Below are positions 4,509 to 38,711 of a DNA stretch of 64,000 nt, in pieces. How positions within the stretch are numbered: the stretch's first letter is position 1; each line of letters opens with the position of its first letter. Under the pieces are notes generated by a model, which ran no database searches, was not told where the DNA came from, and worked only from the letters and a program-made list of their open reading frames with translations. The position numbers and the translations under genes were made by a program. The DNA comes from Escherichia coli. Its GTDB lineage: Bacteria; Pseudomonadota; Gammaproteobacteria; Enterobacterales; Enterobacteriaceae. Location: the NCBI RefSeq assembly GCF_044324875.1, contig NZ_CP172185.1; one strand, 5' to 3'.

Positions 4509-4828
4509 GTAACCACTATGCACACACAAAAAAACCGCTTGCCATGCCGCAATCAGTCAGGTTACATTTCCGCTGCACCTCATAAAACGGGTGCCGGGAT
4601 TGCAACCCCCGCTGACAACTACAGCGCACAACCGCGCCAGCGGTTTTTTTGTGCGTACCGTATCGCCACGTCTTTTTCGCGCCAGAATTATGGCGGGGCG
4701 TATGGGGCCGACTTCGGTCGGGCCGGTTTCTGTAGTTGCCGGTGGTTGCAACCCTGTACGTCTCGCCACCCAGAATTGCAACCTCTGGATGGTGAGTTTT
4801 CAAAACTTGCAACTACAGAGGCCACACC

Positions 4829-21739: not shown

Positions 21740-22354
21740 ATGAGTAACATGTTTGTCAATATCCGGCTGGCAACCAGCCCGCAGGCAGTGAAGCGCATTG
21801 CCGCGCATGTGGGTAAGGAGCTGCGGCGCGTGAACCAGAGCCGGATGCGCGCCCAGAAAGCGCCGGACGGTTCGGTGTGGACACGCCGTAAACGCCGTAT
21901 ATCACGCCTTCAGGAGCGCATCAGCTTTATCTGGCAAAACCAGAACCGCACCCTGAAAAACTGGCATCACGGTTCAGGAAAATACGGCCAGACCATCACC
22001 GGCTGGGATGAAGACCGGAGCGGCATACGTACCTTTTACCGGAGTGATATCCTCCGTTTCCTTGAAATCAGGACACGCCGCATCAACCGTGACACCACAA
22101 AAACGGTGCCGATGTTTGCGAAGCTGCGCACGGCCCGTTATCTGAAAGTGAAGGCGGACGCATCAGGCGTGACGGTGGGCTACAGCGGCGTGGCGGCACG
22201 CATTGCCCGCGTTCACCAGTTCGGGGAGCGCGACCGGGTGGCCGCAGGGATGTATACGGATTATCCGGCCCGTGAACTTCTTGGAATAACACCGGCAGAT
22301 GAACGACTTATTCAGCGTATCATTATGGACAATATCGCGAGGGCTGTGGCATGA
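21740..22354 (+). CDS. S: Tail completion/virion morphogenesis protein, P2 gpS-like
   Basis: Position between R and V; start uncertain (21698 or 21740). Confidence 0.6.
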   Translation: MSNMFVNIRLATSPQAVKRIAAHVGKELRRVNQSRMRAQKAPDGSVWTRRKRRISRLQERISFIWQNQNRTLKNWHHGSGKYGQTITGWDEDRSGIRTFYRSDILRFLEIRTRRINRDTTKTVPMFAKLRTARYLKVKADASGVTVGYSGVAARIARVHQFGERDRVAAGMYTDYPARELLGITPADERLIQRIIMDNIARAVA

Positions 22355-22932
22355 ACGCGGAATTAATGCGCCTTATCAGCAACATCATCAGAACCGGCGT
22401 GATTTTCGACGTGAACCCGCAGACCTGGGAGGTCCGGGTGCGCAGTGGCGGACTGGAGACAGGCTGGCTTCGCTGGAGCACCGCGCGGGCGGGCGCGTTC
22501 AGTGTCTGGGTGCCGCCAGCCACCGGTGAACAGGTGGCGTTCGTCTGTATCGGTGGTAATCCCGAAACCGCGATAATCATCGGCAGCCTCTGGAGCGATG
22601 ATATCCCGGCACCGGGCAGCACACTGAAGGAAATCATCATGACAGCACCGGACGGTGCGGTATTCCGCTACGATGCAGACGCCGGTGCACTGGAGGTTAA
22701 GGGGATTAAAACAGCCAGCATTCAGGCCGACACGCGCATCACCCTGGACACGCCGGAGGTGGTGTGTACCCGCAAACTTATCACCGCCACCCTGGAGGTG
22801 CAGAACGGCGGCGAGATGCGCGGCAGCATATCCCACAGCGGCGGCAGCCTGACATCCAACGGTATCACCGTTCATACGCACACCCACGGTGGCGTCAGGA
22901 CGGGCCCGGGCACCACGGGAGGCCCGCAATGA
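22351..22932 (+). CDS. V: Baseplate spike protein, P2 gpV-like
   Basis: 193 aa; position before W-J-I. Confidence 0.75.
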   Translation: MNAELMRLISNIIRTGVIFDVNPQTWEVRVRSGGLETGWLRWSTARAGAFSVWVPPATGEQVAFVCIGGNPETAIIIGSLWSDDIPAPGSTLKEIIMTAPDGAVFRYDADAGALEVKGIKTASIQADTRITLDTPEVVCTRKLITATLEVQNGGEMRGSISHSGGSLTSNGITVHTHTHGGVRTGPGTTGGPQ

Positions 22933-24738: not shown

Positions 24739-26973
24739 ATGAGCACGAGAAAATTCAGAACCCTTATCACCGACATCGGGCTGGCAAAGCTGGCCGCAAC
24801 AACGGCGCCTGGCGGTAGACCTGTACGCCTTACGCACATGGCTGTAGGGGACGGCAATGGAGAGCTTCGTCAGCCGCAGAAAAACCAGACATCGCTTTAC
24901 AATGAGGTTTGGCGCCAGTCTGTCAACCGCGTCTTCACCGACCCGGAGAACCCGAACCGCCTCATCGCCGAACTGGTCATTCCTCCTGAAACCGGCGGAT
25001 TCTGGGTGCGTGAAATTGGTGTGTTTGATGATACAGGTACAATGATTGCAGTAGGAAATACCGCTGAAAGTTACAAGCCCACCAGAGAGGAAGGTTCAGG
25101 GCGGGCGCAGATATTCCGTGCAGTAATCACCGTCACCTCCGACGCCGTGGTGGAACTGGTCATGGACACAACAACAATTCTGCCGACCACGGACTACATT
25201 GATGAGAAAATGGCGGAACACGCACGTTCCCGTAACCACCCTGACGCGACACTGACAGAAAAAGGATTCACCCAACTGAGCAGCGCCACAAACAGCACCT
25301 CTGAAACACTGGCCGCCACACCGAAGGCCGTCAAGGCTGCATATGACCTTGCAGCCGGTAAAGCACCCGCCAGCCACACCCACCCGTGGAATCAGATAAC
25401 TGGTGTGCCATCAGCCTCGCTGACGGCAAAAGGCACCGTACAGCTGAGCAGTGCCACAAACAGTGAGTCAGAGACTGAGGCGGCCACCCCCAAAGCGGTT
25501 AAAGCCTTACACGATATGGTGACGAGCAAGTATACAGGACAGGATGCAACCACCGGACGCAAAGGCATCGTACAGCTGAGCAGCGCCACAAACAGCAATT
25601 CCGAAACACTGGCGGCCACACCGAAGGCAGTAAGTGATGCACTGAGCATGGCGTTCGTGAAGCCAACAACATCCCTGGGGGAAACAGACCTGAACACTCT
25701 GGGGCGTAAGGAAGACGCGGGAGATTATTACCAGCAGAGTGACTCAGGTGCGAGAACAGACAGAAACTATCCTGTAGAGAAGGCAGGAGAGTTACGCATC
25801 CGTGTTGGTGCATGGGGATTCTGCCAGCATGAATACACGAGCTGGGATCCGCCACGAAAATTTATCAGGACAGTTACCGGAAACTTTAACGGTAACGGCC
25901 CATGGTCAGAGTGGGTGGAGGTGACAAACACAGATGCAACAACTGGACGCAAAGGCATCGTACAGCTGAGCAGCGATACAAACAGCAATTCCGAAACGCT
26001 GGCGGCCACACCAAGAGCCGTCAAGGCTGCATATGACCTTGCAGCCGGTAAAGCACCCGCCAGCCACACCCACCCGTGGAATCAGATAACAGGTGTGCCA
26101 TCAGCCTCGCTGACGGCAAAAGGCACCGTACAGCTGAGCAGTGCCACAAACAGTGAGTCAGAGACTGAGGCCGCCACCCCCAAAGCGGTTAAAGCCTTAC
26201 ACGATATGCTGACGAGCAAGTATACAGGACAGGATGCAACCACCGGACGCAAAGGCATCGTACAGCTAAGCAGCGCCACAAACAGCAATTCCGAAACGCT
26301 GGCGGCCACACCAAAAGCTGTTAAAGCTGCGTATGACCTTGCCAACAGCAAAGCCTCGGCAGCCCACACTCATCGCTGGGCTCAGATCACAGACGCCCCT
26401 GTTTTTTCGTCTGTTGCCCGCGTCATCATGGGTAAACAAAGCATAAAAGATATTCTTGATTACTTTGGTTTAGGAGAAGGCTCGACGCTGCCAGTTGGCG
26501 TACCCGTTCCGTGGCCTTCGTCAAGACCACCTGAGGGGTGGTTACAGTGCAACGGTGCCGCATTCACGCGTACAAAATACCCAAAACTGGCGGTGGCCTA
26601 CCCTGACCTCAGGCTACCAGATTTGCGCGGGGAATTTATTCGTGGATGGGATGACCTGCGAATGATTGACAGGGGACGCTTATTGTTATCCACACAGGAA
26701 GCAACATATATTTGTACCGCCATACAGGCGTACCACGGCGTAGCGGGAGGTGCAGATATTCAGGCAGGGATTTCATTTGCATCACATGATAACGACATCA
26801 TAAACATAACCCCTGATCAACCCAGAACCGGTAACGGCATCCTGTACGGCACAAAACCAGTTGACAGATGGGCAATAGCCAGAGCCGGTAAGCTGGTGAG
26901 TAATGAAAAAGACAGATGGATAGCGATCAGACCGCGCAATATCGCTTTTAATTATATTGTGAGGGCAGTTTAA
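24739..26973 (+). CDS. H: Tail fibre protein, P2 gpH-like, with internal repeats
   Basis: 744 aa; conserved N-terminal domain followed by repeated LSSATNS-SET(L/E)AATPKAVKA motifs. Confidence 0.85.
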   Translation: MSTRKFRTLITDIGLAKLAATTAPGGRPVRLTHMAVGDGNGELRQPQKNQTSLYNEVWRQSVNRVFTDPENPNRLIAELVIPPETGGFWVREIGVFDDTGTMIAVGNTAESYKPTREEGSGRAQIFRAVITVTSDAVVELVMDTTTILPTTDYIDEKMAEHARSRNHPDATLTEKGFTQLSSATNSTSETLAATPKAVKAAYDLAAGKAPASHTHPWNQITGVPSASLTAKGTVQLSSATNSESETEAATPKAVKALHDMVTSKYTGQDATTGRKGIVQLSSATNSNSETLAATPKAVSDALSMAFVKPTTSLGETDLNTLGRKEDAGDYYQQSDSGARTDRNYPVEKAGELRIRVGAWGFCQHEYTSWDPPRKFIRTVTGNFNGNGPWSEWVEVTNTDATTGRKGIVQLSSDTNSNSETLAATPRAVKAAYDLAAGKAPASHTHPWNQITGVPSASLTAKGTVQLSSATNSESETEAATPKAVKALHDMLTSKYTGQDATTGRKGIVQLSSATNSNSETLAATPKAVKAAYDLANSKASAAHTHRWAQITDAPVFSSVARVIMGKQSIKDILDYFGLGEGSTLPVGVPVPWPSSRPPEGWLQCNGAAFTRTKYPKLAVAYPDLRLPDLRGEFIRGWDDLRMIDRGRLLLSTQEATYICTAIQAYHGVAGGADIQAGISFASHDNDIINITPDQPRTGNGILYGTKPVDRWAIARAGKLVSNEKDRWIAIRPRNIAFNYIVRAV
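25331..26315 (+). repeat. Near-identical ~295-bp direct repeats inside the tail-fibre gene
   Basis: 25331-25625 and 26021-26315 are almost identical at nucleotide level (offset 690 bp); shorter repeat at 25947-26015. Confidence 0.8.
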
Positions 26974-27584
26974 TGAGTAACACTGCAGTTCTGGATGAAA
27001 ACGGTATCGCCACTTTCGCAGGCGATATCACTGTATATCACTATGATGAGGAAACCCGGGAATACACCTCATCCTCTGTGGAGTATCTCGCCCTGGGGGT
27101 GGGTACCCCGGCACATTCATGCGCCGATGCCCCGCCAGAGGCAATGCCGGGTTACGTGATTTGCCGGACGTCCACGCTGGACGGGTGGGAGTATGTCCCC
27201 GATCATCGTGGAGAGACGGTATACAGCACAGAGAACGGTAATCCGGTCCAGATTACCCAACCAGGTGACTACCCGGAAGGGACAACGACAAAACAGCCTG
27301 CCACACCATGGGATACCTGGAACGGTGAGGCGTGGGTAACCGATACAGAACGGCAGCAAGCCGAAGAGCTGGAGGTTGCCAGACAGCAACGCAAGGAACG
27401 GGTGGATCAGGCGATGAAGTCCATCGACCTCATCAACCTTAAGTTGCGGGCAGGTCGCAGTCTGACACCAGAAGAAACGGCAAAACTGAATGCCGTGCTG
27501 GATTATATCGACGAGCTGAACGCACTGGATATCAGCACGGAGCCTGAAATAAGCTGGCCGGAAACACCACCAGAAATGGAATGA
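26973..27584 (+). CDS. G: Tail fibre assembly chaperone, P2 gpG-like
   Basis: 203 aa directly after the tail fibre gene. Confidence 0.75.
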   Translation: MSNTAVLDENGIATFAGDITVYHYDEETREYTSSSVEYLALGVGTPAHSCADAPPEAMPGYVICRTSTLDGWEYVPDHRGETVYSTENGNPVQITQPGDYPEGTTTKQPATPWDTWNGEAWVTDTERQQAEELEVARQQRKERVDQAMKSIDLINLKLRAGRSLTPEETAKLNAVLDYIDELNALDISTEPEISWPETPPEME

Positions 27585-27654: not shown

Positions 27655-28143
27655 TCACATCAGATCATTTACGCCGCTTACTGTGGTATTCCAGACCGAA
27701 CTTAACTTCCCTTTCATTCCCGAAAGCATATCAGACACCGGCGACGAGGCCATACTCTCCCGCAAATCCTCATCACAGCGTTCCAGACTGACAGTGAACT
27801 CAATTTTTTTGGCCTTACCGTGGCGGTCAAGTTCGCTTCGCGTTGTGCGGACAGCCGTTATCACATACATGCCGTATATCTGCCCCACACCGTCAATCAG
27901 CGGCCATGGGCGACCAGTGTAAGCCTGCGTCGTTAAAAGGCTGAGGGAAACCTCACCGCCGGTAATTTCGGGATAAAGCACACCGGACAACGTGATCTGG
28001 TCGTCACCCGCCCCGATATACTGCCAGCTGGCCGAACGATTGATGCGTTCATTTTTAACGTGGCGCCAGGTTTTATTATGTTGCAGTTGTTGATGAGGCA
28101 GCGTACGCAACTCAAAAACAAACATGCCGTAAATCATCATCAT
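27655..28143 (-). CDS. U: Tail protein, P2 gpU-like
   Basis: 162 aa; recalled gpU motifs (GDDxITLxGVLYPEITGG, KPWPLIDG). Confidence 0.8.
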   Translation of the reverse strand: MMMIYGMFVFELRTLPHQQLQHNKTWRHVKNERINRSASWQYIGAGDDQITLSGVLYPEITGGEVSLSLLTTQAYTGRPWPLIDGVGQIYGMYVITAVRTTRSELDRHGKAKKIEFTVSLERCDEDLRESMASSPVSDMLSGMKGKLSSVWNTTVSGVNDLM

Positions 28144-28154
28144 GCGAGGTACTC

Positions 28155-31100
28155 CTAATCTCTGTCACGGAAACTACCGACTGTCTGGCGGATACGGCGT
28201 TCCATTTCCGCACGGACGGCATCACCCACCATTTTTGCCAGTTCGCGCGGGTTTTGCGTGTGAACATCATGCAGGTGAATATGCAGTTCGCCAGTTAATC
28301 CCCATGGTGCCGGCTCACTCTGGCGCGGTCGGGGCGATGCGGGGGATATGGGCTGGCGCACAGCCTCAACCACCGGACGGGATGTTGCCGCCATCACTGG
28401 TGTCATTAGCGGGGAGAACGTCGGCATGACATCGTGAGTCATAACCGGTTTGATCACCGGCGGAACCACTGGCGTAATATTACCGGACAGTACCGGACGG
28501 ACGACCGGAGGAATAACCGGCACATTATTCACGGACACCACCGGCTTCACGACCGGCGACACGTTCGCCGTGGTGGATATCAGCGGCGAAACACTGACAG
28601 GCGGTGGCGCTGGCAGCGGTGGCAACGAAGGCACACTGACCGACGGCACCTGCGGCAGTCTGACAGGTGGCTCACTGACACTACCCGGTAACAGGGAAGC
28701 TGCTCGGTTAAAGCGTTCCTCCTTCCACTCACCACGAACGGCCAGCGCTTCCGGCAGGTTTTTAAAGATAATATCGCCGGGACCAGCGCGTTTTTTCGCC
28801 TGTTTCGCCTCATCCAGCAGACCACCGGTGTTATCGACGATTTTGTTCAGGCGGCGCATAGTGCCGGTATTCTCCCCCGTCAGGGGTGGTTGCCCCCCTT
28901 TGGGTTTTTCGCCGTCTTTTTTATCCTCGTCCTTTTTCGGCGGATTAATGACGTTAACATCCGCCAGAAGCATGGCAGCTTTCTCGTTCAGCAACTCCTT
29001 CTGTTTTAGTTCTTCCGCCTTTTTCCGGGCGCGCTCAACCGCCGACGGAATCAGCCCGAGTTTTTCCAGCACCCGGGTTAATGAGTCAATCAGCAGCGTA
29101 ACCGGACCGGTCACCAGATTGCTGATAAACTCCCCTACCTTCTGCCCGAACGTACGCCCGGCTTCCGTGCACTTGTCCAGCTCATCCTTTGTTGTGCTTA
29201 CCGGCGCGAACAAATCCACGAACCACTGCCACACACGCCCGATTGTCTGCCCGACATACTCAAACAGCGGTCCCAGTGGTGCCACAGCCTCGCGCAGTGG
29301 CGTAAGCCCCTGCCACAGGCCGGACAAGAACCCGCCCACGACAGCCTTCAGCTGGTCCCAGTGCCGCCAGATAAGCACTGCCGCACCGACCAGTGTCGCC
29401 ACCACAAGGCCCACCGGACTTAACAGAAAACCCAGCGCCCCGCCAAGTGCGCCCACCGCACCACTCACCATCCCCCACAGTGCGGGCAGACCTGACAGTC
29501 TGAGCGCCAGTATTCCGATACCGCGCCCCAGTGAAATCAGTGCGCCGCCAGGTGAAGTGAACGCAGCCAGCAGACCACCACGCAGCGCGCCAAGTCCCGC
29601 CTGCACACCACGAAGCCGCCCCGCAACTACGCCCAGCAGTGCAGCAAACCGTCCGGCACCGGAGGTGATACCGACAAACAGCACGCGCCAGCCACCGATA
29701 CCGCCCAGCGGACCACCGAGTACGCCGCGCAGCTGCGTCAGTAACGGCAGCGCACGACCGAGGCCGGATGTGCCGGTCAGCAGGGCAAACCCAAGACGCA
29801 GTTTTGCCAGCGGCCCCATCAACACACCAGTGGCAAGTGACAGCGCCCCCATGGCCGCAACCGCAGCCAGCAGTACACCACCGGCAATCAGCAGTTGTTT
29901 TGTCAGTTCAGGGTGCGCCTGAGCCAGCGCGGTGACTTTCGCAATAACCCGGGTGAACGACTGCGTGACAGAACGCAGCGGCCCGTCAACGAGGTCAGCG
30001 ACACGGATACGCAGTCCTTCCCATGCGCTGTTCAGTGATTTCAGGTCACCGTCCAGGTTATCAGCCATAACACGGGCAGTGTGATTAAGTTCCCCGGTGG
30101 CCAGTTCAATCTCCTGCGTAAGACGGGGAAGATTATTTTCCCCCGCCGCAGTGACAAGATTCATCAGGGAAACATAGGACTCCTGCCCGGCAATAGCCCT
30201 GAAAAAGGAGACCTGCGCGGCATTACCGTATTTTCGGGTGGCCTGGTACAGCTCATTCAGGATATTTTCCATCCGGCGCATGTTCCCGTAAGCATCCTGC
30301 GTCTCCACGCCAAGCTCTTTCAGTGCCATTGCAGCGGCCTTCGGCGGATCAACCAGACGTGACAGACTGGCACGCAGCGCCGTACCTGCATCACTTCCAC
30401 GGATCCCCACACTGCCAAGGACACCCGTCATGGCTGCCGCCTGTTCAAGGGACAGGCCAAGTGAAGCTGCAACCGGACCCGTGTACTTCATGGTTTCACC
30501 CAGTGAACGGAGATCCGTATTGGTTCGTGTGAAGGTGGCGGCCAGCGTGTCACCCACGCGATCCATCTGGTCAGCGGACAGACCAAACTGTGTGAGGATA
30601 TTCGAACTGATATCGGCAGTCTGTCCCAGGTCCATCCCTGCAGCCATTGCCAGATCAAGCACGCCGGGTAGCGCCGCCTGTATGGCCTGTGGTGTGAAGC
30701 CGGCCATGGCAAGGAACGCCTGACCGCTGGCAGCATCACCGGCGGTAAACTGCGTTTCAGAGCCCAGCTTAATGGCCTGTTCGCGCAGCGCCTTAAACTG
30801 CGGACTGTTTTTGTCAATACGGGTCAGCGCCTGGACGCGTGACATCTCCTTACCAAAACTGACCGCCGGTTGCAGGAAACGTCCGGCCGCATAGCCGCCT
30901 GCCGCCGCCGTACCAACCGCCGTAAGTCCGACCGTTTTAAGTTTTCCCGCCGTCTCCTGAGCACGGGAATATTGCTGGCGTGCCTGCGTGACACGTGCCA
31001 GCGCCTGCCGTTCGCGTTCCAGCTGGTCGTTGTATTGCTGTGTTCGCCGTATGGCCTGTTGAATGGTGTTGTCACTGCCGGAAAGCGCAATACCGTGGCG

Positions 31101-31466
31101 CCGCAGCTCACCACCCAGTTCGCGCATTCGCTGAACTTCACGCGCACGGACCTCATTGAGACGCTCAAGTTTGAGGCTCAAATCGTTCATCAGCTTTTTC
31201 TGTTTGTCAGACAGCACGGTTCCGGCGCGCTGAATTTGCTGAAGTGCGCTTAACTGGCGTTGTGCCCGGGCAATGCCGTTTCCGGCCTTGTTTGCAGCCT
31301 CGCGGGCGCGATCAAATGAACGGGCGTGGCGTTCCAGGTTTTTGATCGCACCCTGCGTTCTCTGTATGGAGTCGCCAAGCTGGCCCATCATGCGACGGGC
31401 GTTTTCGGTGGGACGGGTCAGCCTGTCAACAGCGCTGAAGGCGACCCGTATATCAAGCGTTTTCAT
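28155..31466 (-). CDS. T: Tail tape measure protein, P2 gpT-like
   Basis: ~1100 aa, coiled-coil N-terminus, Gly/Ala-rich TM-like middle, Pro/Val-rich C-terminus; start MKTLDI overlaps the E' stop. Confidence 0.85.
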   Translation of the reverse strand: MKTLDIRVAFSAVDRLTRPTENARRMMGQLGDSIQRTQGAIKNLERHARSFDRAREAANKAGNGIARAQRQLSALQQIQRAGTVLSDKQKKLMNDLSLKLERLNEVRAREVQRMRELGGELRRHGIALSGSDNTIQQAIRRTQQYNDQLERERQALARVTQARQQYSRAQETAGKLKTVGLTAVGTAAAGGYAAGRFLQPAVSFGKEMSRVQALTRIDKNSPQFKALREQAIKLGSETQFTAGDAASGQAFLAMAGFTPQAIQAALPGVLDLAMAAGMDLGQTADISSNILTQFGLSADQMDRVGDTLAATFTRTNTDLRSLGETMKYTGPVAASLGLSLEQAAAMTGVLGSVGIRGSDAGTALRASLSRLVDPPKAAAMALKELGVETQDAYGNMRRMENILNELYQATRKYGNAAQVSFFRAIAGQESYVSLMNLVTAAGENNLPRLTQEIELATGELNHTARVMADNLDGDLKSLNSAWEGLRIRVADLVDGPLRSVTQSFTRVIAKVTALAQAHPELTKQLLIAGGVLLAAVAAMGALSLATGVLMGPLAKLRLGFALLTGTSGLGRALPLLTQLRGVLGGPLGGIGGWRVLFVGITSGAGRFAALLGVVAGRLRGVQAGLGALRGGLLAAFTSPGGALISLGRGIGILALRLSGLPALWGMVSGAVGALGGALGFLLSPVGLVVATLVGAAVLIWRHWDQLKAVVGGFLSGLWQGLTPLREAVAPLGPLFEYVGQTIGRVWQWFVDLFAPVSTTKDELDKCTEAGRTFGQKVGEFISNLVTGPVTLLIDSLTRVLEKLGLIPSAVERARKKAEELKQKELLNEKAAMLLADVNVINPPKKDEDKKDGEKPKGGQPPLTGENTGTMRRLNKIVDNTGGLLDEAKQAKKRAGPGDIIFKNLPEALAVRGEWKEERFNRAASLLPGSVSEPPVRLPQVPSVSVPSLPPLPAPPPVSVSPLISTTANVSPVVKPVVSVNNVPVIPPVVRPVLSGNITPVVPPVIKPVMTHDVMPTFSPLMTPVMAATSRPVVEAVRQPISPASPRPRQSEPAPWGLTGELHIHLHDVHTQNPRELAKMVGDAVRAEMERRIRQTVGSFRDRD

Positions 31467-31979
31467 GCTCTGCGTTCCCGCTGCGAAGGGCCGCCCGCTC
31501 ACGCCAGGCGACCACCTCGCCGGGATCCATCAGGAAGATTTCAGCGGGAGACCAGTTGAAAATAACGGCGATATCCGCCACAAAGTCTTCAATATGCTCA
31601 AAGGGCACGACGGTTATCAGCCTGCCGTCGCCGCCACGCTCTTCCCGCCAGAGTCCTGACCGGCCAAAAAATTAACCGCCACCCCGCACAGCTGAATAAA
31701 ATCAGCGGACCCCATGCGCTTAAGCAGAACCTCGTCCAGTCGCGGCGAAGTGACGCGCGGGAGTAACTCAAACATCGCGTCCGTTTTCATGTTCAGCACG
31801 TCAAGCAGTGACAGCCCGCGCAGTGAACCGGCCTGCTGTACAGCAGGCGTGATTTCCACATACGTGATTTTTTTGTTACCGAGCACAAGGGGCGTTTTCA
31901 GCGTCACGCCGCGCTCACTGGTCACGTCCGCCGCATCAGCACCGTCAGTAACAGGGGCAACAACCGGATTTTCTTTCAT
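31454..31979 (-). CDS. E: Tail assembly chaperones gpE (31617-31979) and frameshift extension E' (to 31454)
   Basis: E is a 120-aa ORF; a -1 frame is open from the slippery site to a stop at 31454 that overlaps the T start. Confidence 0.7.
31665..31671 (-). other. Programmed -1 ribosomal frameshift site (T TTT TTG) for E/E'
   Basis: Heptamer TTTTTTG in X_XXY_YYZ register within E, 15 codons before the E stop. Confidence 0.65.
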
Positions 31980-32029
31980 GCATAAAACCTCAAATCAGGG
32001 GGCGACGCCGCGCGCCGCCGTGGGAAACA

Positions 32030-32548
32030 TTAACCACCAAGACCAATCGCCGAGCGCACGCGGTCCGGGAAGACGTTTTTGCCGTCCTTGCGTTCGATGT
32101 GGTTCAGTAAATCAATCTCCAGCACCGGACGGTCGTTAATGCTGAGTTTGTAGTAGGTACTCCTGACCGCATAGGTGTGAGACGTGACCTCACCCTGTTT
32201 TGCCTCCCCCGTATCAATTTCCGTCACGCGGCCGCGAAGCTCAATTTCATACAGGTCGCTCTGCTCTTCATCGTTGTAGTACTCACCGACAAAGCGCAGC
32301 AGCGTACCGTCGATCGTGCCGCCGTACTTAAGGAACAGTTCGCGGGTCGGCCCGCCCATGGTGAAACTCGCATCCAGCGCGCCGTCATCCAGACCAAGGT
32401 CGATATTCACCGCGCCGGCCATACCACCACCGCGATAGGCTTCCGTTTTACGGGTCAGTTTGGGGGGCGTGAAGCCGGTCACCCTGCCAATCTGGTTCAC
32501 CCCGTCAGTAAACAGCGTGAACACCCTGAGATTTTTTGGTACGGCCAT
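32030..32548 (-). CDS. FII: Tail tube protein, P2 gpFII-like
   Basis: 172 aa directly downstream of the sheath gene. Confidence 0.8.
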   Translation of the reverse strand: MAVPKNLRVFTLFTDGVNQIGRVTGFTPPKLTRKTEAYRGGGMAGAVNIDLGLDDGALDASFTMGGPTRELFLKYGGTIDGTLLRFVGEYYNDEEQSDLYEIELRGRVTEIDTGEAKQGEVTSHTYAVRSTYYKLSINDRPVLEIDLLNHIERKDGKNVFPDRVRSAIGLGG

Positions 32549-33831
32549 TAAGCACCTCCAAGCGTCGCAAATGCAGGACCAAAGAATTCATCAGTAAACG
32601 TCTGGTAAAGTTCCATATCCTCAAGCGGCGGAACGGGCGTGTACTTGTAGCGGATACGCACGCGTCCCTGACGAAGTTCCGTGGTGCTGTTATCCACCAC
32701 GTCATACCAGCACTCCGCACCAACGAGACGTCCTGACGTAACCAGCGCATCCAGTTTTGCGCGAATTGCGCTTAACACGTCTTTCACATTAGCAGGGGTC
32801 AGCGGGGCATCAATCGTTTCAAACTGCGCTTCCGCAATGGAATCAGCCAGCACCTGAGCGGTTCGCGTGTACACCTCAAAGATATACGCCTTCGTTTCCG
32901 GCGTACGGTTGCCCCAGAAGCGGAAACCGTTACGGCAAATGATGGTAGTGATTTCCTTGTTGTTGAGATTGTTGGCATCGCTGTCTTCGGACTGAAGGGA
33001 CCAGAACACCGGGCTGGAAATACCCAGCACATTTCTTACCGGCACGTTGGACAGCGATTTATGCCAGCCCTGTTCGTGGTCAATACGTGCACGTAAACCG
33101 CAGGCGTACGCCGCAGCCGGGAAGACCTCATTAGCGCCGGATTTCGGGTTATGGGCGATGAAGTCCGGCCAGACCAGCATAAGTTCGCGCTCGTTAAATC
33201 TGGCGCGGTAGCTGATTGCATCGGCGGGCTTCTTGCAGTTGTGACAGCCCGCGTAGACAAATGCGCGAAGTTTTTCTGCAATTACACACAGGGATTTTGT
33301 GACAGCTTCAGTATCCAGTCCGGGCGCTGCGATGATGCGCGGACGGTAACCGATGGCATCATCCTGTTCAGCTATCAGAAGTGCATACATACCGGTATAA
33401 TTACCGTCGCCATCCGTGCCACCAATGACATACTGGTCCTGCGTTTTGTGTGGGTATACAGGATGTGCATCTTCAGACTCATCAATACCAAAAAATGCCC
33501 TGTCTTCAGGATCCAGATGACCGAATGATGTAACTCCTGTATCCGGGGCGCCCTGAGAACTGGCATCAGGAACGCGCACCACAATCACCTTCGTGCTCAC
33601 CTGGTCGGCGACAGCCTTAAGCGATTTGTAAAGCGTCCCCTTTGTGCCGGCCTTACCCAGCACATCACTGACGCGGGTCAGCAGTGTGGGTTTGTTCAGC
33701 GGGAACAGAGTTTCATCCGCGTCATCTGCCGTAGCCACAATACCAATAACACTGGAATCCACATCATTAATGGCGGTGGCAAGGCCGGTACTTTCCCTTA
33801 CGCGCGCACCATGAAAGCGTGTTTCACTCAT
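32548..33831 (-). CDS. FI: Tail sheath protein, P2 gpFI-like
   Basis: Start MSETRFHGARV resembles the recalled P2 FI start MSDYHHGVQV; ~427 aa. Confidence 0.85.
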   Translation of the reverse strand: MSETRFHGARVRESTGLATAINDVDSSVIGIVATADDADETLFPLNKPTLLTRVSDVLGKAGTKGTLYKSLKAVADQVSTKVIVVRVPDASSQGAPDTGVTSFGHLDPEDRAFFGIDESEDAHPVYPHKTQDQYVIGGTDGDGNYTGMYALLIAEQDDAIGYRPRIIAAPGLDTEAVTKSLCVIAEKLRAFVYAGCHNCKKPADAISYRARFNERELMLVWPDFIAHNPKSGANEVFPAAAYACGLRARIDHEQGWHKSLSNVPVRNVLGISSPVFWSLQSEDSDANNLNNKEITTIICRNGFRFWGNRTPETKAYIFEVYTRTAQVLADSIAEAQFETIDAPLTPANVKDVLSAIRAKLDALVTSGRLVGAECWYDVVDNSTTELRQGRVRIRYKYTPVPPLEDMELYQTFTDEFFGPAFATLGGA

Positions 33832-33992
33832 ATGTTTCACCCTTGTCTGGCTGGTTGATTTTGCGTAATCATTACCCACACACGCGGTAATCTCACCCCT
33901 TTGATGTTGTCTCCTGACAGCGACAACAAAACAGCCATTCAACGCCGCTGCGGTGCATGAAACCATTACAGAACGCACCAGGAGAGAACACC

Positions 33993-35084
33993 ATGAAAGA
34001 GCTGTCAGTTACCGTTCCGTCACCGGATATCGACATCACCATCAACAACAACACACTGGCAAACCTCACAGAGCGACTCATGACGCTGACCCTGACGGAT
34101 AACCGGGCCTTTGAGGCAGACCGCGTCACCCTCACCCTTGACGATACGGACGGGCAGTTACAGTTGCCACCACGTGGCGCACGCCTGAGAGTGATGATTG
34201 GCTGGCGAGGAGAATCACTGGTTAACAAGGGCACCTACGTCGTTGATGAGGTTGCGTGGGAAGGACCTCCAGATAAACTGATCATCACCGCCAGCAGCGC
34301 AGATTTTCGGGAAGAGTTCAACGTGAGGCGGGAGGTATCCTGGCACGACGTGACCGTAAAACAGGTTGTGTCAGCCATCGCTCACCGCTACGGCCTGAAG
34401 ACACAGATAAGCGAAATCCTCATGGATATCGAAATTGACCACGCTGACCAGACCGAAGAGAGCGATATATCCTTCCTGACCCGCATGGCTGAAATGCTGG
34501 GTGCGATTGCCACCGTAAAAAACGGCAGCCTGTTATTCATTCTGCCGGGTGGCGGAACCGGGCCGGACGGAAAAGCCCTGCCTTCGTTCGCCATTACCCG
34601 CAGCAGCGGCGACAGTCACCGCTTTCGCATTGCTGACCGTGATGCGTATACGGGGGTCCGGGCGCACTGGCTCGATCTGAAGTTCGGGCACAAGAAAAAA
34701 GTGAACGTGAAGCGACGCAGGGAAGCCGGGAAACAGAAACAGGAGAAGAGCAGCAGCCGGGAGGGTGATTACATGGAAGGCGCGGAAGGGAACGTCTACG
34801 TTCTGCGCAGGACTTACCAGAATGAAGAAACCGCACGACGTGCAGCTGCGGCAAAGTGGCAGGAGTTACAGCGGGGAGCAGCGGCATTCTCCATCACTCT
34901 GGCACGGGGTCGTGCCGACCTGTATCCCGAAATGCACGGCAGGGTAACAGGTTTTAAAAGCGAGGTGGACAATCAGGACTGGATTATTGCCAGGGTGGAG
35001 CACATCATAGATGAAAGCGGCTTCACCACACAACTGGAGCTGGAAGCGAAAATCCCCGAATGGATAGCAGATTCAGGCGGATAA
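33993..35084 (+). CDS. D: Tail protein, P2 gpD-like (late control D family)
   Basis: GGAGAG RBS before ATG at 33993; ~363 aa; followed by ogr as in P2. Confidence 0.75.
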   Translation: MKELSVTVPSPDIDITINNNTLANLTERLMTLTLTDNRAFEADRVTLTLDDTDGQLQLPPRGARLRVMIGWRGESLVNKGTYVVDEVAWEGPPDKLIITASSADFREEFNVRREVSWHDVTVKQVVSAIAHRYGLKTQISEILMDIEIDHADQTEESDISFLTRMAEMLGAIATVKNGSLLFILPGGGTGPDGKALPSFAITRSSGDSHRFRIADRDAYTGVRAHWLDLKFGHKKKVNVKRRREAGKQKQEKSSSREGDYMEGAEGNVYVLRRTYQNEETARRAAAAKWQELQRGAAAFSITLARGRADLYPEMHGRVTGFKSEVDNQDWIIARVEHIIDESGFTTQLELEAKIPEWIADSGG

Positions 35085-35127
35085 AATTAAAATGAGCCAT
35101 CTCCACTCAGCCAGATAAGGAGAAGCC

Positions 35128-35379
35128 ATGTTCCGTTGTCCCCTATGCGGTGCATCCGCACGTATCCGCACCAGTCGCAATGAAAATGATTCAGGCACAG
35201 TTCGCCTGAAGTACTACCAGTGCAATAACCTCGAATGCGGGATCGGCTTTACCACACTGGAGGGTTTTAACAAATTCACATCAAAACGCGCCCCGTCGCC
35301 GCAGGGTACAGAGCGGATACCGTGGGAAGATTTTCCGGGATCTCACAGGGGGAATGCTCAGATGAATCTTGATATTTAA
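35128..35379 (+). CDS. ogr: Ogr/Delta-family zinc-finger late-gene activator
   Basis: MFRCPLCGASARIRTSR...YYQCNNLECG resembles the recalled P2 Ogr MFHCPLC...HQCQNVNC. Confidence 0.8.
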   Translation: MFRCPLCGASARIRTSRNENDSGTVRLKYYQCNNLECGIGFTTLEGFNKFTSKRAPSPQGTERIPWEDFPGSHRGNAQMNLDI

Positions 35380-35521
35380 GAACAATAATCAGGTTGAGAG
35401 GACATCATAAGGCAAGTAGATTAACGGCAGATACTTTCCCGCAACCACGGGCAAGTATTTAATTATCCATGATGAAATATGACCTAAATTGTTTTTTGCC
35501 CGCCGGAAAGCGGGCATTTTT

Positions 35522-35737
35522 TTATTCTTTTGTGGTTATGGGGTCATCAGGAACCACGTGCAGATTATATTTTTGTTTTTTTGGCGTTCCTCCGGCAGCA
35601 ACGAGTTCATCAATAAGACACTGACACGCCTGAACATCCCGGGCATGTCTTAGTTTCACCTTTATTGATTTAACCTTATCCTCACCGGAGGAGAAATGCA
35701 GTTCAATCTCAATATCGTTTCTTCGGAACAATCTCAT
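35522..35737 (-). CDS. Small hypothetical protein (71 aa); the only intact copy of a thrice-repeated gene
   Basis: AGGGGGG RBS; decayed paralogues at ~36840-36905 and ~37500-37560; palindromic AT-rich upstream region. Confidence 0.4.
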   Translation of the reverse strand: MRLFRRNDIEIELHFSSGEDKVKSIKVKLRHARDVQACQCLIDELVAAGGTPKKQKYNLHVVPDDPITTKE

Positions 35738-36094
35738 ACGCCCCCCTGAATATATCAGAAATGCTAGTATCGAAAAATGAGAAAACAGTTAGACAGGAGA
35801 AACATATTAACACAAATCATTTATACCTATAGATGAAATTATAATTTCATTCATGAATATGATAGATAACTATATTGTGAACAAAATGAAAAATGGCTAA
35901 ATTAAAAATGGGCATGGAGGAATGCCCGGTTATCAATATAATGTGACGTAGATCATTGTTTTGCCCGCCGGAGAGCGGGCATTTTTTTTGCGCCTGCCAT
36001 CGAGGCGCCTTCCCTGGCGCACACAAAGCAGCCCTGATTTTCCATGAAAACTTCAGGGTTGAGCTGCGGGCACAAAGTGAGTAGATTAGCTACG

Positions 36095-36189
36095 GGTACC
36101 TCCCCCTGACAACAGGAAGGGTGTCCATTATCCATGATATACAAACGAAAAGTCTTGTTTTTTGCCCGCCGAAGCGCGGGCATTTTTTT
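36095..36189 (+). ncRNA. Candidate sRNA unit S1 (promoter plus intrinsic terminator)
   Basis: -35 TTGAGC (36059-36064), 17-bp spacer, -10 TAGATT (36082-36087), then ~95 nt with a CCTTCC/GGAAGG stem-loop ending in the hairpin and T-run. Confidence 0.35.
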
Positions 36190-36315
36190 ATGCATCAGAC
36201 AAGATACAGCCCACCCCAACTGACACCTGAAATATTGCCGCAACAAAAAGAAACAGTTAAATTACGCGCGGGTGCCTTTCGGCTGATGGCCGGAGGGAAA
36301 ACCTGAAGGCCGGAT

Positions 36316-36549
36316 GTGGAAAGGCCCCGGAAAACATTTCTGTTTAACCGAGGCCCTAACCGCATTACCTTGACAAGTGAAAGGTTAGCGCCTCTCCGGA
36401 AAAGGAGCAAGTGCTATGTCGCAAAAATCGCTTACGGCCATCACGTTCTGCGTGACGGCAATCCTCATCATCTGGATATTGCACGGTTCGCTGTGCGAAA
36501 TACGGATGAGCTTCTGGGGAGCGGAGTTTGCGGCGTTCTTACAATGTAA
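36316..36549 (+). CDS. mok-like overlapping reading frame of the hok-like locus
   Basis: 77-aa ORF starting ~100 nt upstream of and overlapping the hok-like ORF in another frame. Confidence 0.4.
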   Translation: MERPRKTFLFNRGPNRITLTSERLAPLRKRSKCYVAKIAYGHHVLRDGNPHHLDIARFAVRNTDELLGSGVCGVLTM

Positions 36550-36556
36550 GAAGTAA
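36416..36556 (+). CDS. Hok/Gef-family type I toxin (46 aa)
   Basis: MSQKSLTAITFCVTAILIIWILHGSLCEIRMSFWGAEFAAFLQCKK: TM helix then SLCEIR and E(V/F)AAF motifs as in plasmid R1 Hok; AAGGAG RBS. Confidence 0.7.
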   Translation: MSQKSLTAITFCVTAILIIWILHGSLCEIRMSFWGAEFAAFLQCKK

Positions 36557-36645
36557 GGAAACCGCGACGGGGGAGCAATCCCCCGTCAATCGGTTGCCAG
36601 GGTAAGGTCGATAAGGCACCCTATCTCACAGACATGAACAACAAA

Positions 36646-36676
36646 CCCGCAGCATAAAAACTGCGGGTTTTCTTTT
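36646..36676 (+). terminator. Intrinsic terminator of the hok-like transcript
   Basis: Hairpin CCCGCAG-CATAAAAA-CTGCGGG followed by TTTTCTTTTT. Confidence 0.6.
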
Positions 36677-37265
36677 TGGTGTCCTCACCGACTTGAAACA
36701 GTGATCAGACTATAAGACAAAGCCCGCAATGTTGCGGGCTTACTCTACCTCTCGAAAATGTGGTCACTGCGTGGACATACGCTGATACAAATCCTTTATA
36801 TCAATAAATTAAATCTTTGTTTTTTTCATCAACAATGATTTAACCTTATCCTCACCGGAGGAGAAATGCAGTTCAATCTCAATATCGTTTCTGTGGAACA
36901 GCCTCATAAGACAACCTCCTGAATTCATCAGAAACACAGTCAACTGAAAACCAGAAAGCAGACAAACAGTGGACACACATTAATACAAATCATTTATACC
37001 TATAGATGAAATTGCAGTTTCATCTATAACATGACAGGTAACAATATTGTGAAAAAACTCAAAACTCGTTAGATTAAAGACGGACAGAGCAATGCTACTT
37101 TATCAATAACATGTAACCTGTACTTCCTTATTTTGCCCGCCGAAGCACGGGCATTTTTTTTGCGCCTGCCATCGAGGCGCCTTCCCTGGCGCACACAAAG
37201 CAGCCCTGATTTTCCATGAAAACTTCAGGGTTGAGCCAAAAGCACAAAGACAGTAGATTAACCAC

Positions 37266-37359
37266 GGGTGCCTTCCACCTGACAACAGGAAGGGTGTCCA
37301 GTATCAATGACAGACAACTCACATTGCTGTTTTGCCCGCCGGAAAGCGGGCATTTTTTT
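37266..37359 (+). ncRNA. Candidate sRNA unit S2
   Basis: Same -35/17 bp/-10 (TTGAGC...TAGATT at 37231/37254) and terminator architecture as S1. Confidence 0.3.
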
Positions 37360-37914
37360 ATTCTTTTGTGGTTATTGGGTCATCAGGAACAACATGCAGA
37401 TTATGCTTTGATTTTTTTGGTGTTATTACAGCAGCAACGAGTTTATTAATAAGACACTGACATGCCTGAACATCCCTGACATATCATAATTTCACTTTAT
37501 TTTTTTAGCTTGTCCTTTCTGGAGCAGAAATATCTCAACATCGTTTCTGTGGAACAACCTCATTTGCCCCTGAATGTATCATAAATATCAGCATCGGAAA
37601 ACCAACAGCAATACAGAAGAAACATGTTAATGCAAATCACTTATACCTATAGATGAAATTACAGTTTTGTTCATAAATATGATAAGTAACTATATTGTGA
37701 ATAAAATGAAAACTAGCTAAATTAAACGTGGGCATGGTGGAATGCCTCGTAATCAATAATACATGATCCGTACTTCCTTGTTTTGCCCGCCGGAAAGCGG
37801 GCATTTTTTTGGCGGTTACCATCGCCTCACCTTCCTGGTTCACATGAAGCAACCCTGATTTTCCATGAAAACTTCAGGGTTGAGACAAAAGCACAAAGAC
37901 AGTAGATTAACCAC

Positions 37915-38007
37915 GGGTACCTTCCACCTGACAACAGGAAGGCTGTCCAGTATCAATGACAGACAACTCACATTGCTGTTTTGCCCGCCGGAAAGCGGGC
38001 TTTTTTT
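37915..38007 (+). ncRNA. Candidate sRNA unit S3
   Basis: -35 TTGAGA 37879, -10 TAGATT 37902, terminator hairpin 37983-38000. Confidence 0.3.
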
Positions 38008-38112
38008 GGCAGTTATCATAGCCGCACCTTCCTGGCACATATGAAGCAACCCTGATTTTCCATGAAAACTTCAGGGTTGAGACAAAAGCACAAAAACAGT
38101 AGATTAACCACG

Positions 38113-38208
38113 GGTGCCTGCCACCTGACAACAGGAAGGGGTGTCCATTATCCATGATATACAAACGAAAAGTCTTGTCTTTTGCCCGCCAAAGCGCGGG
38201 CATTTTTT
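38113..38208 (+). ncRNA. Candidate sRNA unit S4
   Basis: -35 TTGAGA 38077, -10 TAGATT 38100, terminator hairpin 38184-38201. Confidence 0.3.
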
Positions 38209-38420
38209 TATGCATCAGACAAGATACAGCCCACCCCAACTGACACCTGAAATATTGCCGCAACAAAAAGAAACGGGTGCCTTTCGGCTGATGGCCGGAG
38301 GGAAAACCTGAAGGCCGGATGTGGAAAGGCCCCGGAAAACATCTGTGTTTAACCGAGGCCTGACCCTTCCTACCGTGACAAGTGGAAGGTTAGCGCCTCT
38401 TTGTAAAAGGAGCAAGCGCT

Positions 38421-38561
38421 ATACCGCAAAAAACGATTATTGTTGGCATTTTATGCCTGACAATAACCCTGGTCATCTGGATGGTCCACGATTCGTTATG
38501 TGAATTCAGCTTTGATATCTGGGGAGCGCGTTTTGCGGCGTTCTTGCAGTGTAAACCGTAA
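38421..38561 (+). pseudogene. Degenerate second hok-like copy
   Basis: Start codon ATG replaced by ATA, LCEIR changed to LCEFSF; the matching mok-like frame (38321-38503) is truncated. Confidence 0.6.
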
Positions 38562-38711
38562 GAAACCGCAGCGGGGGAGAAATTCCCCGCTATCCGGTTG
38601 TTGGGGTGGGCCGATATGGCGCCCTTTCCCTGTAGAGACAAAACAAAAAACCAGATTTGCCCGCCATTGAGAGGGCTTTTTTGTCACCCTCACCAGTGAG
38701 GGCATCATCAT

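What the first reader, a model, noticed from the sequence alone, without database searches (positions are those of the whole stretch)
31454..31979. Conserved programmed -1 frameshift (TTTTTTG) producing an E/E' fusion
The slippery heptamer T_TTT_TTG is in the correct register 15 codons before the E stop. The -1 frame stays open for 70 codons and ends exactly overlapping the tape-measure start. This mirrors the P2 E/E' and lambda G/GT arrangement and supports the tail-module annotation.
Basis: partly seen in the sequence, partly recalled or inferred. Interest (0 to 1): 0.3.

Follow-up and report, generated by a model that had tools for sequence, protein, structure and literature searches.

The report
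P2-type tail chaperone frameshift site
This is an ordinary, unannotated copy of the programmed -1 ribosomal frameshift that P2-like phages use to make two tail-assembly chaperones (E and E+E') from one start codon, here in a P88-like prophage of E. coli.

Summary
All features are on the minus strand. Gene E (31979..31617, 120 aa) carries T_TTT_TTG at 31671..31665 in X_XXY_YYZ register, 15 codons before its stop. The -1 frame has a TAA immediately 5' of the T-run. It then runs 70 codons to TGA 31455..31453, 14 nt inside the tape-measure gene (ATG 31466).

- The -1 extension matches Pfam Phage_P2_GpE (4e-12).
- E aligns end to end with P2 gpE (35% identity), with the Phe-Leu slip codons at the homologous position.
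- In 94 related loci, E' is always in the -1 frame and an in-phase slippery heptamer is always present.
- The base before the T-run is T in 50 of 50 distinct sequences, across seven different amino acids.
- Where the T-run is broken, a heptamer one codon upstream (A_AAT_TTT or C_CCT_TTC) replaces it.
- Codon-position variability switches to the -1 frame exactly at the slip site.
- Most relatives have no start codon for E'.
- No stimulatory RNA structure was found, as reported for P2.

This is a new member of a well-known kind and of low interest. The practical point is that RefSeq annotates E as "hypothetical" and E' as a separate 51-aa gene.

The parts
31617..31979 (-). Gene E: zero-frame tail assembly chaperone, 120 aa (stop TGA 31619..31617)
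   Evidence: ORF and translation. BLASTP to P2 gpE gives 35% identity over 88 aa, E=2e-14. PHROG 103 'tail protein', 4e-31. There is no Pfam hit for this part. RefSeq calls the identical gene 'hypothetical protein'.
31665..31671 (-). Slippery heptamer T_TTT_TTG (zero-frame codons AAT TTT TTG = Asn103-Phe104-Leu105)
   Evidence: Phase checked. It sits at the homologous position in P2, 186 and others. The preceding wobble base is T in 50 of 50 distinct relatives, across 7 different amino acids.
31672..31674 (-). TAA stop in the -1 frame immediately 5' of the T-run; it limits productive shifting to the heptamer and the 15 codons after it
   Evidence: the E' frame opens at the heptamer, and the overlap zone is 52 nt.
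31453..31665 (-). E' : -1 frame extension, 70 codons plus stop TGA 31455..31453. The fusion E+E' is join(31979..31665, 31665..31453), 175 aa
   Evidence: PHROG 1756, 6e-33, covers fusion residues 98-172 and so spans the junction. The third-codon-position variability pattern switches to this frame directly after the slip site.
31474..31581 (-). Conserved GpE domain of E' (fusion residues 134-169; ADIAVIFNW...WRERA..RSG)
   Evidence: Pfam PF06528 Phage_P2_GpE, 4e-12, 45.8 bits against a cutoff of 23. All 16 aligned family members hit it. Alignment.
31453..31608 (-). Stand-alone 51-aa ORF from GTG 31608, as annotated in RefSeq ('GpE family phage tail protein'); probably not an independent gene
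   Evidence: Annotation of the 99.7%-identical E. coli prophage. There is no Shine-Dalgarno sequence upstream, and 37 of 69 distinct relatives have no start codon in this stretch.
28155..31466 (-). Gene T, tape measure protein (1103 aa from ATG 31466); its start overlaps the E' end by 14 nt
   Evidence: PF10145 PhageMin_Tail, 6e-53. Start and overlap. The same 14-nt overlap is annotated in P88.
32030..32548 (-). Gene FII, tail tube protein, immediately upstream of E
   Evidence: PF04985 Phage_tube, 1.8e-44.
32548..33831 (-). Gene FI, tail sheath protein
   Evidence: PF04984, PF22671 and PF17482. The RefSeq counterpart has the same length.
27655..28143 (-). Gene U, tail protein downstream of T
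   Evidence: PF06995 Phage_P2_GpU, 2.8e-41.

Best explanation
This is a programmed -1 ribosomal frameshift in the tail assembly chaperone gene of a P2-family (P88/Xuanwuvirus-like) prophage.

Ribosomes translating E on the minus-strand late transcript (FI-FII-E-T-U) reach AAU UUU UUG. tRNA-Phe sits on UUU in the P site and tRNA-Leu on UUG in the A site. In a minority of ribosomes both tRNAs slip one base 5' and re-pair on U UUU UU. Decoding then continues with GGC (31665..31663) in the -1 frame for 70 codons.

Most ribosomes stay in frame and stop 15 codons later, giving the 120-aa E. The shifted ones give the 175-aa E+E'. The two proteins share 105 N-terminal residues and are made at a ratio fixed by the shift efficiency.

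By homology with P2 E/E+E', and by analogy with lambda G/GT, the shared E part would bind the tape-measure protein T. The E' domain would link that complex to the tail tube protein so that the tube polymerises around the tape measure.

Shown here: the sequence anatomy, homology of both parts to P2 E and E', and comparative signatures of selection on the slip site and on the -1 frame.

Inferred: that the shift happens in this prophage, its efficiency, and the chaperone function.
For: 1. Anatomy is exact: the phase, the 15 and 70 codon counts, and a -1 frame bounded by TAA directly 5' of the heptamer.

2. The -1 frame encodes a real protein domain: PF06528 at 4e-12 and PHROG 1756 at 6e-33, spanning the junction. 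AlphaFold2 models the fusion confidently. Mean pLDDT is 86.7, and blocks 101-130 across the junction score 91-92.

3. E is homologous to P2 gpE, with the Phe-Leu slip codons aligned. 14 of 16 aligned family members hit PF10109 Phage_TAC_7, and 16 of 16 hit PF06528.

4. The gene order tube, E/E', tape measure matches the family.

5. Comparative data:
- In 17 diverse phage loci and 76 distinct viral-contig sequences, E' is always in the -1 frame and an in-phase XXXYYYZ heptamer is always in the overlap.
- It is TTTTTTG in 14 of 18 sequences (window plus the 17 phage loci) and in 47 of 76 viral-contig sequences.
- Where the T-run is interrupted, a heptamer one codon upstream is kept: A_AAT_TTT in 15 sequences and C_CCT_TTC in 11.
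- The wobble base of the preceding codon is T in 50 of 50 distinct T6-type sequences, although that codon encodes P, N, G, D, T, S or Y.

6. Site variability peaks at zero-frame position 3 upstream of the slip (0.85/0.60/1.25). In the 15-codon overlap it peaks at -1-frame position 3 (0.65/1.05/0.79), the same pattern as in E'-only sequence (0.45/1.03/0.62). Amino-acid identity in the overlap is 0.60 in the -1 frame against 0.44 in the zero frame.

7. E' has no dependable start. 37 of 69 distinct relatives have no ATG, GTG or TTG within 30 codons upstream of the conserved core, and none has a strong Shine-Dalgarno sequence.

8. Literature: P2 shifts -1 at TTTTTTG to give the 91-aa E and 142-aa E+E', and the site is conserved in P2-like phages (PMC3091744, citing Christie et al. 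2002 and Xu et al. 2004). My reconstruction from the P2 record gives the same 91 and 142 aa. The lambda G/GT mechanism and its 30:1 ratio are described in PMC5009743.
Against: - There is no direct protein evidence for this prophage.
- No stimulatory element was found. Downstream folds are no better than shuffles (z = -0.46 and -0.37). RNAalifold finds no conserved pairs in 16 relatives. Rfam has no match. The efficiency may therefore be low, although P2 is also reported to lack such a structure.
- TTTTTTG alone is common in the window: 25 copies against 17 expected.
- A GTG at 31608 could in principle start E' independently, and RefSeq annotates it that way.
- The E part does not reach the Pfam PF10109 threshold.
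- The compared sequences are related, so raw counts overstate the number of independent events.
Confidence: 0.93

Rival explanations
1. E' is an independent small gene, translated from its own start (GTG 31608, 51 aa) as annotated in RefSeq. The heptamer is incidental.
For: A GTG is present in frame 10 codons upstream of the conserved core. It is conserved among the closest P88-like relatives. PGAP annotates a stand-alone 'GpE family phage tail protein' there.
Against: - There is no Shine-Dalgarno sequence before the GTG.
- 37 of 69 distinct relatives have no start codon at all in that stretch.
- The -1 frame is already the constrained frame in the 15 codons upstream of the GTG.
- PHROG 1756 and the AlphaFold2 model cover residues upstream of the GTG.
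- The slip heptamer is under nucleotide-level selection.
Confidence: 0.04
2. The frame change is made by RNA polymerase slippage on the T6/A6 run, which would add or delete a base in the mRNA, not by the ribosome.
For: A homopolymeric run of six T is present. Transcriptional slippage is a known alternative route to such fusions in some systems (reviewed in PMC5009743).
Against: Six residues is short for efficient slippage (my knowledge of the field, not tested here). In 26 related distinct sequences the homopolymer is broken to T4 or T3, yet an X_XXY_YYZ pattern is preserved in phase (AAATTTT, CCCTTTC). That fits tandem tRNA re-pairing and not polymerase stuttering. The strict phase requirement has no meaning for a polymerase.
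Confidence: 0.02
3. There is no functional recoding. The heptamer and the open -1 frame are a chance coincidence, or a decayed remnant in a defective prophage.
For: The heptamer is common in the window. About 10% of in-phase heptamers in the window are followed by -1 runs of 70 codons or more. In one near-identical E. coli prophage the tape-measure gene is annotated as broken.
Against: The -1 frame matches a curated family well above threshold. It shows purifying selection. All neighbouring tail genes in the window are intact. The arrangement is universal in 94 related loci.
Confidence: 0.01

Closest known systems
Bacteriophage P2 E / E+E' programmed -1 frameshift (Christie et al. 2002, J Bacteriol 184:6522; cited via PMC3091744)
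   Same: - Same slippery heptamer TTTTTTG at the homologous Phe-Leu codons.
- Same -1 direction.
- Homologous E part (35% identity) and E' part (PF06528).
- Same position between tube gene FII and tape-measure gene T.
- No downstream stimulatory structure (PMC3091744).
   Different: - E is 120 aa against 91, and the fusion 175 aa against 142.
- The zero-frame tail after the slip is 15 codons against 6.
- The -1 extension is 70 codons against 57. It has about 13 extra residues (GLWREERGGDGRL) between the junction and the conserved domain, modelled as a beta-hairpin.
- E' ends 14 nt inside T instead of just before it.
- The E part falls below the PF10109 threshold.
- The whole FI-U block is inverted relative to H-G and D-ogr.
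Escherichia phage P88 and other Xuanwuvirus (Peduoviridae), the closest sequenced phages
   Same: - About 77-78% nucleotide identity over E/E'.
- Same gene order and orientation, and the same 15 and 70 codon geometry.
- Same 14-nt E'/T overlap.
   Different: P88 has two overlapping in-phase heptamers (A_AAT_TTT_TTG), while the window has only T_TTT_TTG, preceded by a -1-frame TAA. Neither record annotates the frameshift; both list two separate 'tail protein' CDSs.
Phage lambda G / GT tail assembly chaperone frameshift (Levin et al. 1993; Xu et al. 2004, 2013, 2014; via PMC5009743)
   Same: [quoted passage not shown]
- Two products share an N-terminus at a fixed ratio.
- It works without an elaborate stimulator.
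   Different: - No detectable sequence similarity. No lambda-type family was hit in Pfam, NCBIfam or PHROGs.
- The heptamer differs; lambda uses G_GGA_AAG (my recollection, not checked here).
- Lambda has a non-contractile tail, and this phage a contractile one.

Membership tests
P2-type E/E+E' tail assembly chaperone pair (Peduoviridae) | The gene pair lies between the tail tube gene (FII) and the tape-measure gene (T) | tested here: met
   Tube PF04985 at 32548..32030 and tape measure PF10145 at 31466..28155, flanking E/E'.
P2-type E/E+E' tail assembly chaperone pair (Peduoviridae) | The zero-frame product is homologous to P2 gpE (Pfam PF10109 Phage_TAC_7) | tested here: met
   BLASTP to P2 gpE: 35% identity over 88 of 91 residues, E=2e-14. 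PHROG 103, 4e-31. Conserved motifs appear in the 16-sequence alignment. Caveat: the Pfam model PF10109 does not reach threshold for this protein or for P88, although it hits the other 14 aligned members.
P2-type E/E+E' tail assembly chaperone pair (Peduoviridae) | The -1 frame extension carries the GpE/E' domain (Pfam PF06528) | tested here: met
   45.8 bits against a gathering score of 23, E=4e-12, fusion residues 134-169.
P2-type E/E+E' tail assembly chaperone pair (Peduoviridae) | An in-phase X_XXY_YYZ slippery heptamer (TTTTTTG in P2) lies within the E/E' overlap, at the conserved Phe-Leu position | tested here: met
   T_TTT_TTG at 31671..31665. It is positionally homologous to the P2 site.
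P2-type E/E+E' tail assembly chaperone pair (Peduoviridae) | E' lacks its own translation initiation site | tested here: inconclusive
   In the window a GTG (31608) exists, but without a Shine-Dalgarno sequence. 37 of 69 relatives have no start codon, and constraint on the -1 frame begins upstream of the GTG. Sequence alone cannot exclude weak initiation.
P2-type E/E+E' tail assembly chaperone pair (Peduoviridae) | A fusion polypeptide is actually produced by -1 frameshifting, and both products are needed for tail assembly | not testable with these tools
   This needs proteomics, reporter assays and genetics. It was shown for P2 only, according to the literature cited in PMC3091744.
Lambda G/GT chaperone family | Sequence homology to lambda gpG/gpGT | tested here: not met
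   The only families hit in Pfam and PHROGs are P2-type, and NCBIfam gave nothing. The relationship is one of analogous arrangement only.
Stimulator-dependent bacterial -1 frameshift sites (dnaX / IS-element type) | A downstream hairpin or pseudoknot, or an upstream Shine-Dalgarno-like stimulator | tested here: not met
   Downstream folds score z = -0.46 and -0.37 against shuffles. There are 0 conserved pairs in 16 relatives. Rfam has no match. Flanking sequences show no conserved SD-like motif upstream.

The most novel reading that the evidence does not exclude
The slip site may be evolutionarily tunable within this clade. Lineages carry one heptamer (the window: T_TTT_TTG only, fenced by a -1-frame TAA), two overlapping heptamers (P88: A_AAT_TTT_TTG; others C_CCT_TTT_TTG), or only the upstream one (A_AAT_TTT or C_CCT_TTC). 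These could set different E:E+E' ratios.

Separately, the clade-specific 13-residue insert right after the junction is constrained in the -1 frame. It may adapt E+E' to the much longer tape measure (1103 aa) of this prophage.

Neither idea is excluded or supported beyond the sequence patterns.
Probability: 0.15. Interest if true: 0.3.

Novelty: new member of a known kind. Interest (0 to 1): 0.12.

Why it matters
The main value is for annotation. In the 99.7%-identical E. coli prophage that I inspected, RefSeq labels E as 'hypothetical protein' and E' as a separate 51-aa gene, so the real 175-aa product is missing from that record. The hit table lists the same labels for the other near-identical prophages, and about 24 E. 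coli genomes carry a copy at 99% identity or more.

The site also confirms that the surrounding block is an intact P2-type contractile-tail module.

The comparative patterns are a clean textbook illustration of selection acting on a recoding signal. These are the invariant wobble T across seven amino acids, the heptamer that hops by one codon, and the switch of the constrained frame at the slip site. They reveal no new mechanism.

Tried and rejected
- NCBIfam gave no hit for E, E' or the fusion.
- Pfam gave no hit for the E part, even at E<=10.
- Rfam found nothing in 31300-32100 at E<=1.
- Downstream RNA structure was tested in two windows and with RNAalifold on 16 relatives. Nothing beat shuffles and no pairs were conserved, so a stimulator-dependent mechanism was rejected.
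- PDB sequence search with the family profile gave only a chance-level hit, E=0.13.
- Foldseek of the AlphaFold2 model against the PDB gave no match at E<=0.001. No solved relative could be named.
- The primary P2 paper (PMC135442) is not held, so it is cited second-hand through PMC3091744. My recollection that its abstract reports about 10% frameshifting is unverified.
- A literature search for the frameshift in Xuanwuvirus found nothing specific.
- Plus-strand ORFs overlapping the region (31273-31659 and 31714-32139) were judged spurious. They lie antisense to genes with family hits, and the codon-position variability follows the minus-strand frames.
- The length of the -1 run was considered as stand-alone evidence and rejected as weak.

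Full report
**1. The observation**

The feature is on the minus strand. Gene E runs 31979..31617 (120 aa). TTTTTTG lies at 31671..31665, with zero-frame codons AAT TTT TTG, so it is in X_XXY_YYZ register. Fifteen zero-frame codons follow before the TGA at 31619..31617.

The -1 frame has a TAA (31674..31672) immediately 5' of the T-run. After a -1 slip the frame stays open for exactly 70 codons, to the TGA at 31455..31453. The tape-measure ATG is at 31466, so the overlap is 14 nt. The predicted fusion is 175 aa.

The heptamer alone is not informative. It occurs 25 times in the window against 17 +/- 4 expected. In the window's long ORFs, in-phase XXXYYYZ heptamers occur at 0.0029 per codon, and only one other in-phase T_TTT_TTG exists in 17,446 codons. 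About 10% of in-phase heptamers are followed by a -1 run of 70 codons or more. Position and phase are therefore suggestive, at roughly the 5% level for any heptamer in the 17-codon zone. The case rests on homology and comparative evidence.

**2. What the two frames encode**

- The fusion matches Pfam PF06528 (Phage_P2_GpE) at residues 134-169, with 45.8 bits against a cutoff of 23, E=4e-12.
- It matches PHROG 1756 over residues 98-172, across the junction. The E part matches PHROG 103 at 4e-31.
- The E part has no Pfam or NCBIfam hit. It does align with P2 gpE over nearly the whole of gpE (35% identity, E=2e-14), and the Phe-Leu slip codons are aligned.
- In a 16-member alignment, all members hit PF06528 and 14 hit PF10109 (Phage_TAC_7). 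Only the window and P88 miss PF10109.
- The neighbouring genes are sheath, tube, tape measure (PF10145) and gpU on the same strand, with gpD and an Ogr/Delta zinc finger on the other strand.
- AlphaFold2 models the fusion with mean pLDDT 86.7, and with 91-92 across the junction region.

**3. Where it comes from**

The closest phages are P88-like Xuanwuvirus (Peduoviridae), at about 77-78% nucleotide identity. About 24 complete E. coli genomes carry a copy at 99% identity or more. In the genome I inspected (99.7% identical), RefSeq annotates E as 'hypothetical protein' and E' as a separate 51-aa 'GpE family phage tail protein' starting at the GTG equivalent to 31608, with no frameshift. The hit table shows the same labels for the other near-identical copies. 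P88's record does the same.

**4. Comparative test**

I took 17 diverse phage loci (P2, 186, P88, and Klebsiella, Yersinia, Burkholderia, Ralstonia, Mannheimia, Shewanella, Vibrio and Zymomonas elements). I added 80 viral-contig loci, of which 76 are distinct.

- In every one, E' is in the -1 frame relative to E, and at least one in-phase XXXYYYZ heptamer lies in the overlap.
- TTTTTTG is present in 14 of 18 sequences (window plus the 17 phage loci) and in 47 of 76 viral-contig sequences. My P2 reconstruction gives 91 and 142 aa, matching the literature.
- The other phage loci carry TTTTTTT, TTTTTTC, CCCTTTC or GGGAAAG.
- Among the viral contigs, the T-run is broken in some sequences. These keep an in-phase heptamer one codon upstream instead: AAATTTTATG keeps A_AAT_TTT in 15 sequences, and CCCTTTCTTG keeps C_CCT_TTC in 11.
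- In 50 distinct T6-type sequences the preceding codon encodes seven different amino acids (P, N, G, D, T, S, Y). Its wobble base is T in 50 of 50. This is selection on the nucleotide pattern and not on the protein.

**5. Which frame is read after the site**

I used 70 distinct sequences with the same spacing as the window. Per-site entropy at zero-frame positions 1/2/3 is as follows:

| Region | Position 1 | Position 2 | Position 3 |
|---|---|---|---|
| 50 codons upstream of the slip | 0.85 | 0.60 | 1.25 |
| 15-codon overlap | 0.65 | 1.05 | 0.79 |
| E'-only sequence | 0.45 | 1.03 | 0.62 |

Upstream, variability peaks at the zero-frame wobble position. In the overlap and beyond, it peaks at zero-frame position 2, which is the wobble position of the -1 frame. 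Amino-acid identity in the overlap is 0.60 in the -1 frame against 0.44 in the zero frame.

The constrained frame therefore switches at the slip site, upstream of the GTG that RefSeq uses as a start. In addition, 37 of 69 distinct relatives have no ATG, GTG or TTG within 30 codons upstream of the conserved core, and none has a strong Shine-Dalgarno sequence. Independent initiation cannot be the family's general mode of E' expression. The sequences are related, so these are not independent counts. The relocated heptamers and the varied preceding codons do represent separate events.

**6. Stimulators**

None was found. The 60-nt and 105-nt downstream segments fold no better than shuffles, with z = -0.37 and -0.46. 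RNAalifold finds no conserved pairs in 16 relatives. Rfam has no match. This agrees with what is reported for P2 and its Burkholderia relatives (PMC3091744).

**7. Mechanism**

The mechanism is tandem -1 slippage of tRNA-Phe (P site, UUU) and tRNA-Leu (A site, UUG) onto U UUU UU, after which GGC is read at 31665..31663. The majority product is E and the minority product is E+E'.

By homology with P2 and analogy with lambda G/GT (PMC5009743), the shared part would bind the tape measure. The E' domain would recruit tube subunits. These functional steps are inferred and were not shown here.

**8. Comparison and novelty**

This is a member of the P2 E/E+E' family. It differs as follows:
- longer products (120 and 175 aa against 91 and 142 aa);
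- a longer overlap (15 codons against 6);
- a clade-specific insert of about 13 residues after the junction;
- an E'/T overlap of 14 nt;
- an inverted FI-U block.

It resembles lambda G/GT in arrangement only. It is a new member of a known kind and of low interest, apart from correcting the annotation.

**9. Dead ends**

- NCBIfam gave nothing.
- The PDB sequence search and the Foldseek search found no solved relative.
- The primary P2 paper is not held.
- No paper on the frameshift in Xuanwuvirus was found.

Noticed in passing
window 35400-38700: Between the prophage ogr gene and serS lies a block of diverged direct repeats. It holds 9 copies of a terminator-like hairpin (TTTGCCCGCCGGAAAGCGGGCATTTTTTT) spaced about 200 nt or more apart, and larger repeat units with start-to-start distances of about 1170 and 2005 nt. 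It contains one intact Hok/Gef-like ORF (36416-36556, +; annotated as such in a near-identical genome). It also contains a second, frame-broken copy around 38420-38561. No Rfam family reaches threshold here.
   Followed up: partly
window 35522-35737 (-), 36809-36976 (-), and about 37532-37570: A small ORF beginning MRLF(R/H)RNDIEIELHFSSGEDKVKS is duplicated or triplicated within the repeat block. Its function is unknown, and RefSeq calls the first copy 'hypothetical protein'.
   Followed up: no
window 4575-4773 (+): isrK Hfq-binding RNA (60 bits) lies directly next to a C4 antisense RNA (80 bits) in the early region of the prophage. This is a P1/P7- or P22-style antisense immunity or anti-repressor control module inside a P2-family prophage.
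   Followed up: no
window 54176-54203 (-), beside tRNA-Ser(GGA) 53809-53896 and RtT 53940-54074: A single CRISPR-DR4 repeat (50 bits, gathering score 35) sits next to the tRNA-Ser gene and a large minus-strand ORF (54417-56708). No array or cas genes were seen in the window. It looks like an orphan remnant repeat.
   Followed up: no
window 27655-35379: The FI-FII-E-E'-T-U block is on the minus strand. The tail fibre genes H and G (24739-27584) and D and ogr (33957-35379) are on the plus strand. The block is therefore inverted relative to the P2 gene order as I recall it. P88 shows the same D-versus-sheath orientation.
   Followed up: partly
window 28155-31466 (-), the 3' end of the gene (lower window coordinates): The tape measure is 1103 aa, against 935 aa in P88. 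Near its C-terminus it has a long Pro/Val-rich low-complexity tract (for example PVVKPVVSVNNVPVIPPVVRPVLSGNITPVVPPVIKPV). In the 99.7%-identical prophage of E. coli ECCNB12-2, T is annotated as a broken pseudogene.
   Followed up: no
related loci L020-L040 and L065-L077 (viral contigs): The slip site hops by one codon among close relatives. AAATTTTATG keeps only A_AAT_TTT. CCCTTTCTTG keeps only C_CCT_TTC. P88-type AAATTTTTTG and CCCTTTTTTG carry two overlapping heptamers. This may be a way of tuning the E:E+E' ratio.
   Followed up: partly
window 31636: This is one of two differences from the near-identical E. coli prophages (T in the window, G in them). It changes Val to Gly in the E tail but is synonymous in the E' frame. 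That fits the -1 frame being the constrained one in the overlap.
   Followed up: yes
window 22902-22911 (+): In-phase GGGCCCG and CCCGGGC heptamers lie 6-7 codons before the end of the gpV spike gene (22351-22932). The -1 frame is open for about 123 codons after them. This is most likely just the ordinary overlap with the next baseplate gene.
   Followed up: no
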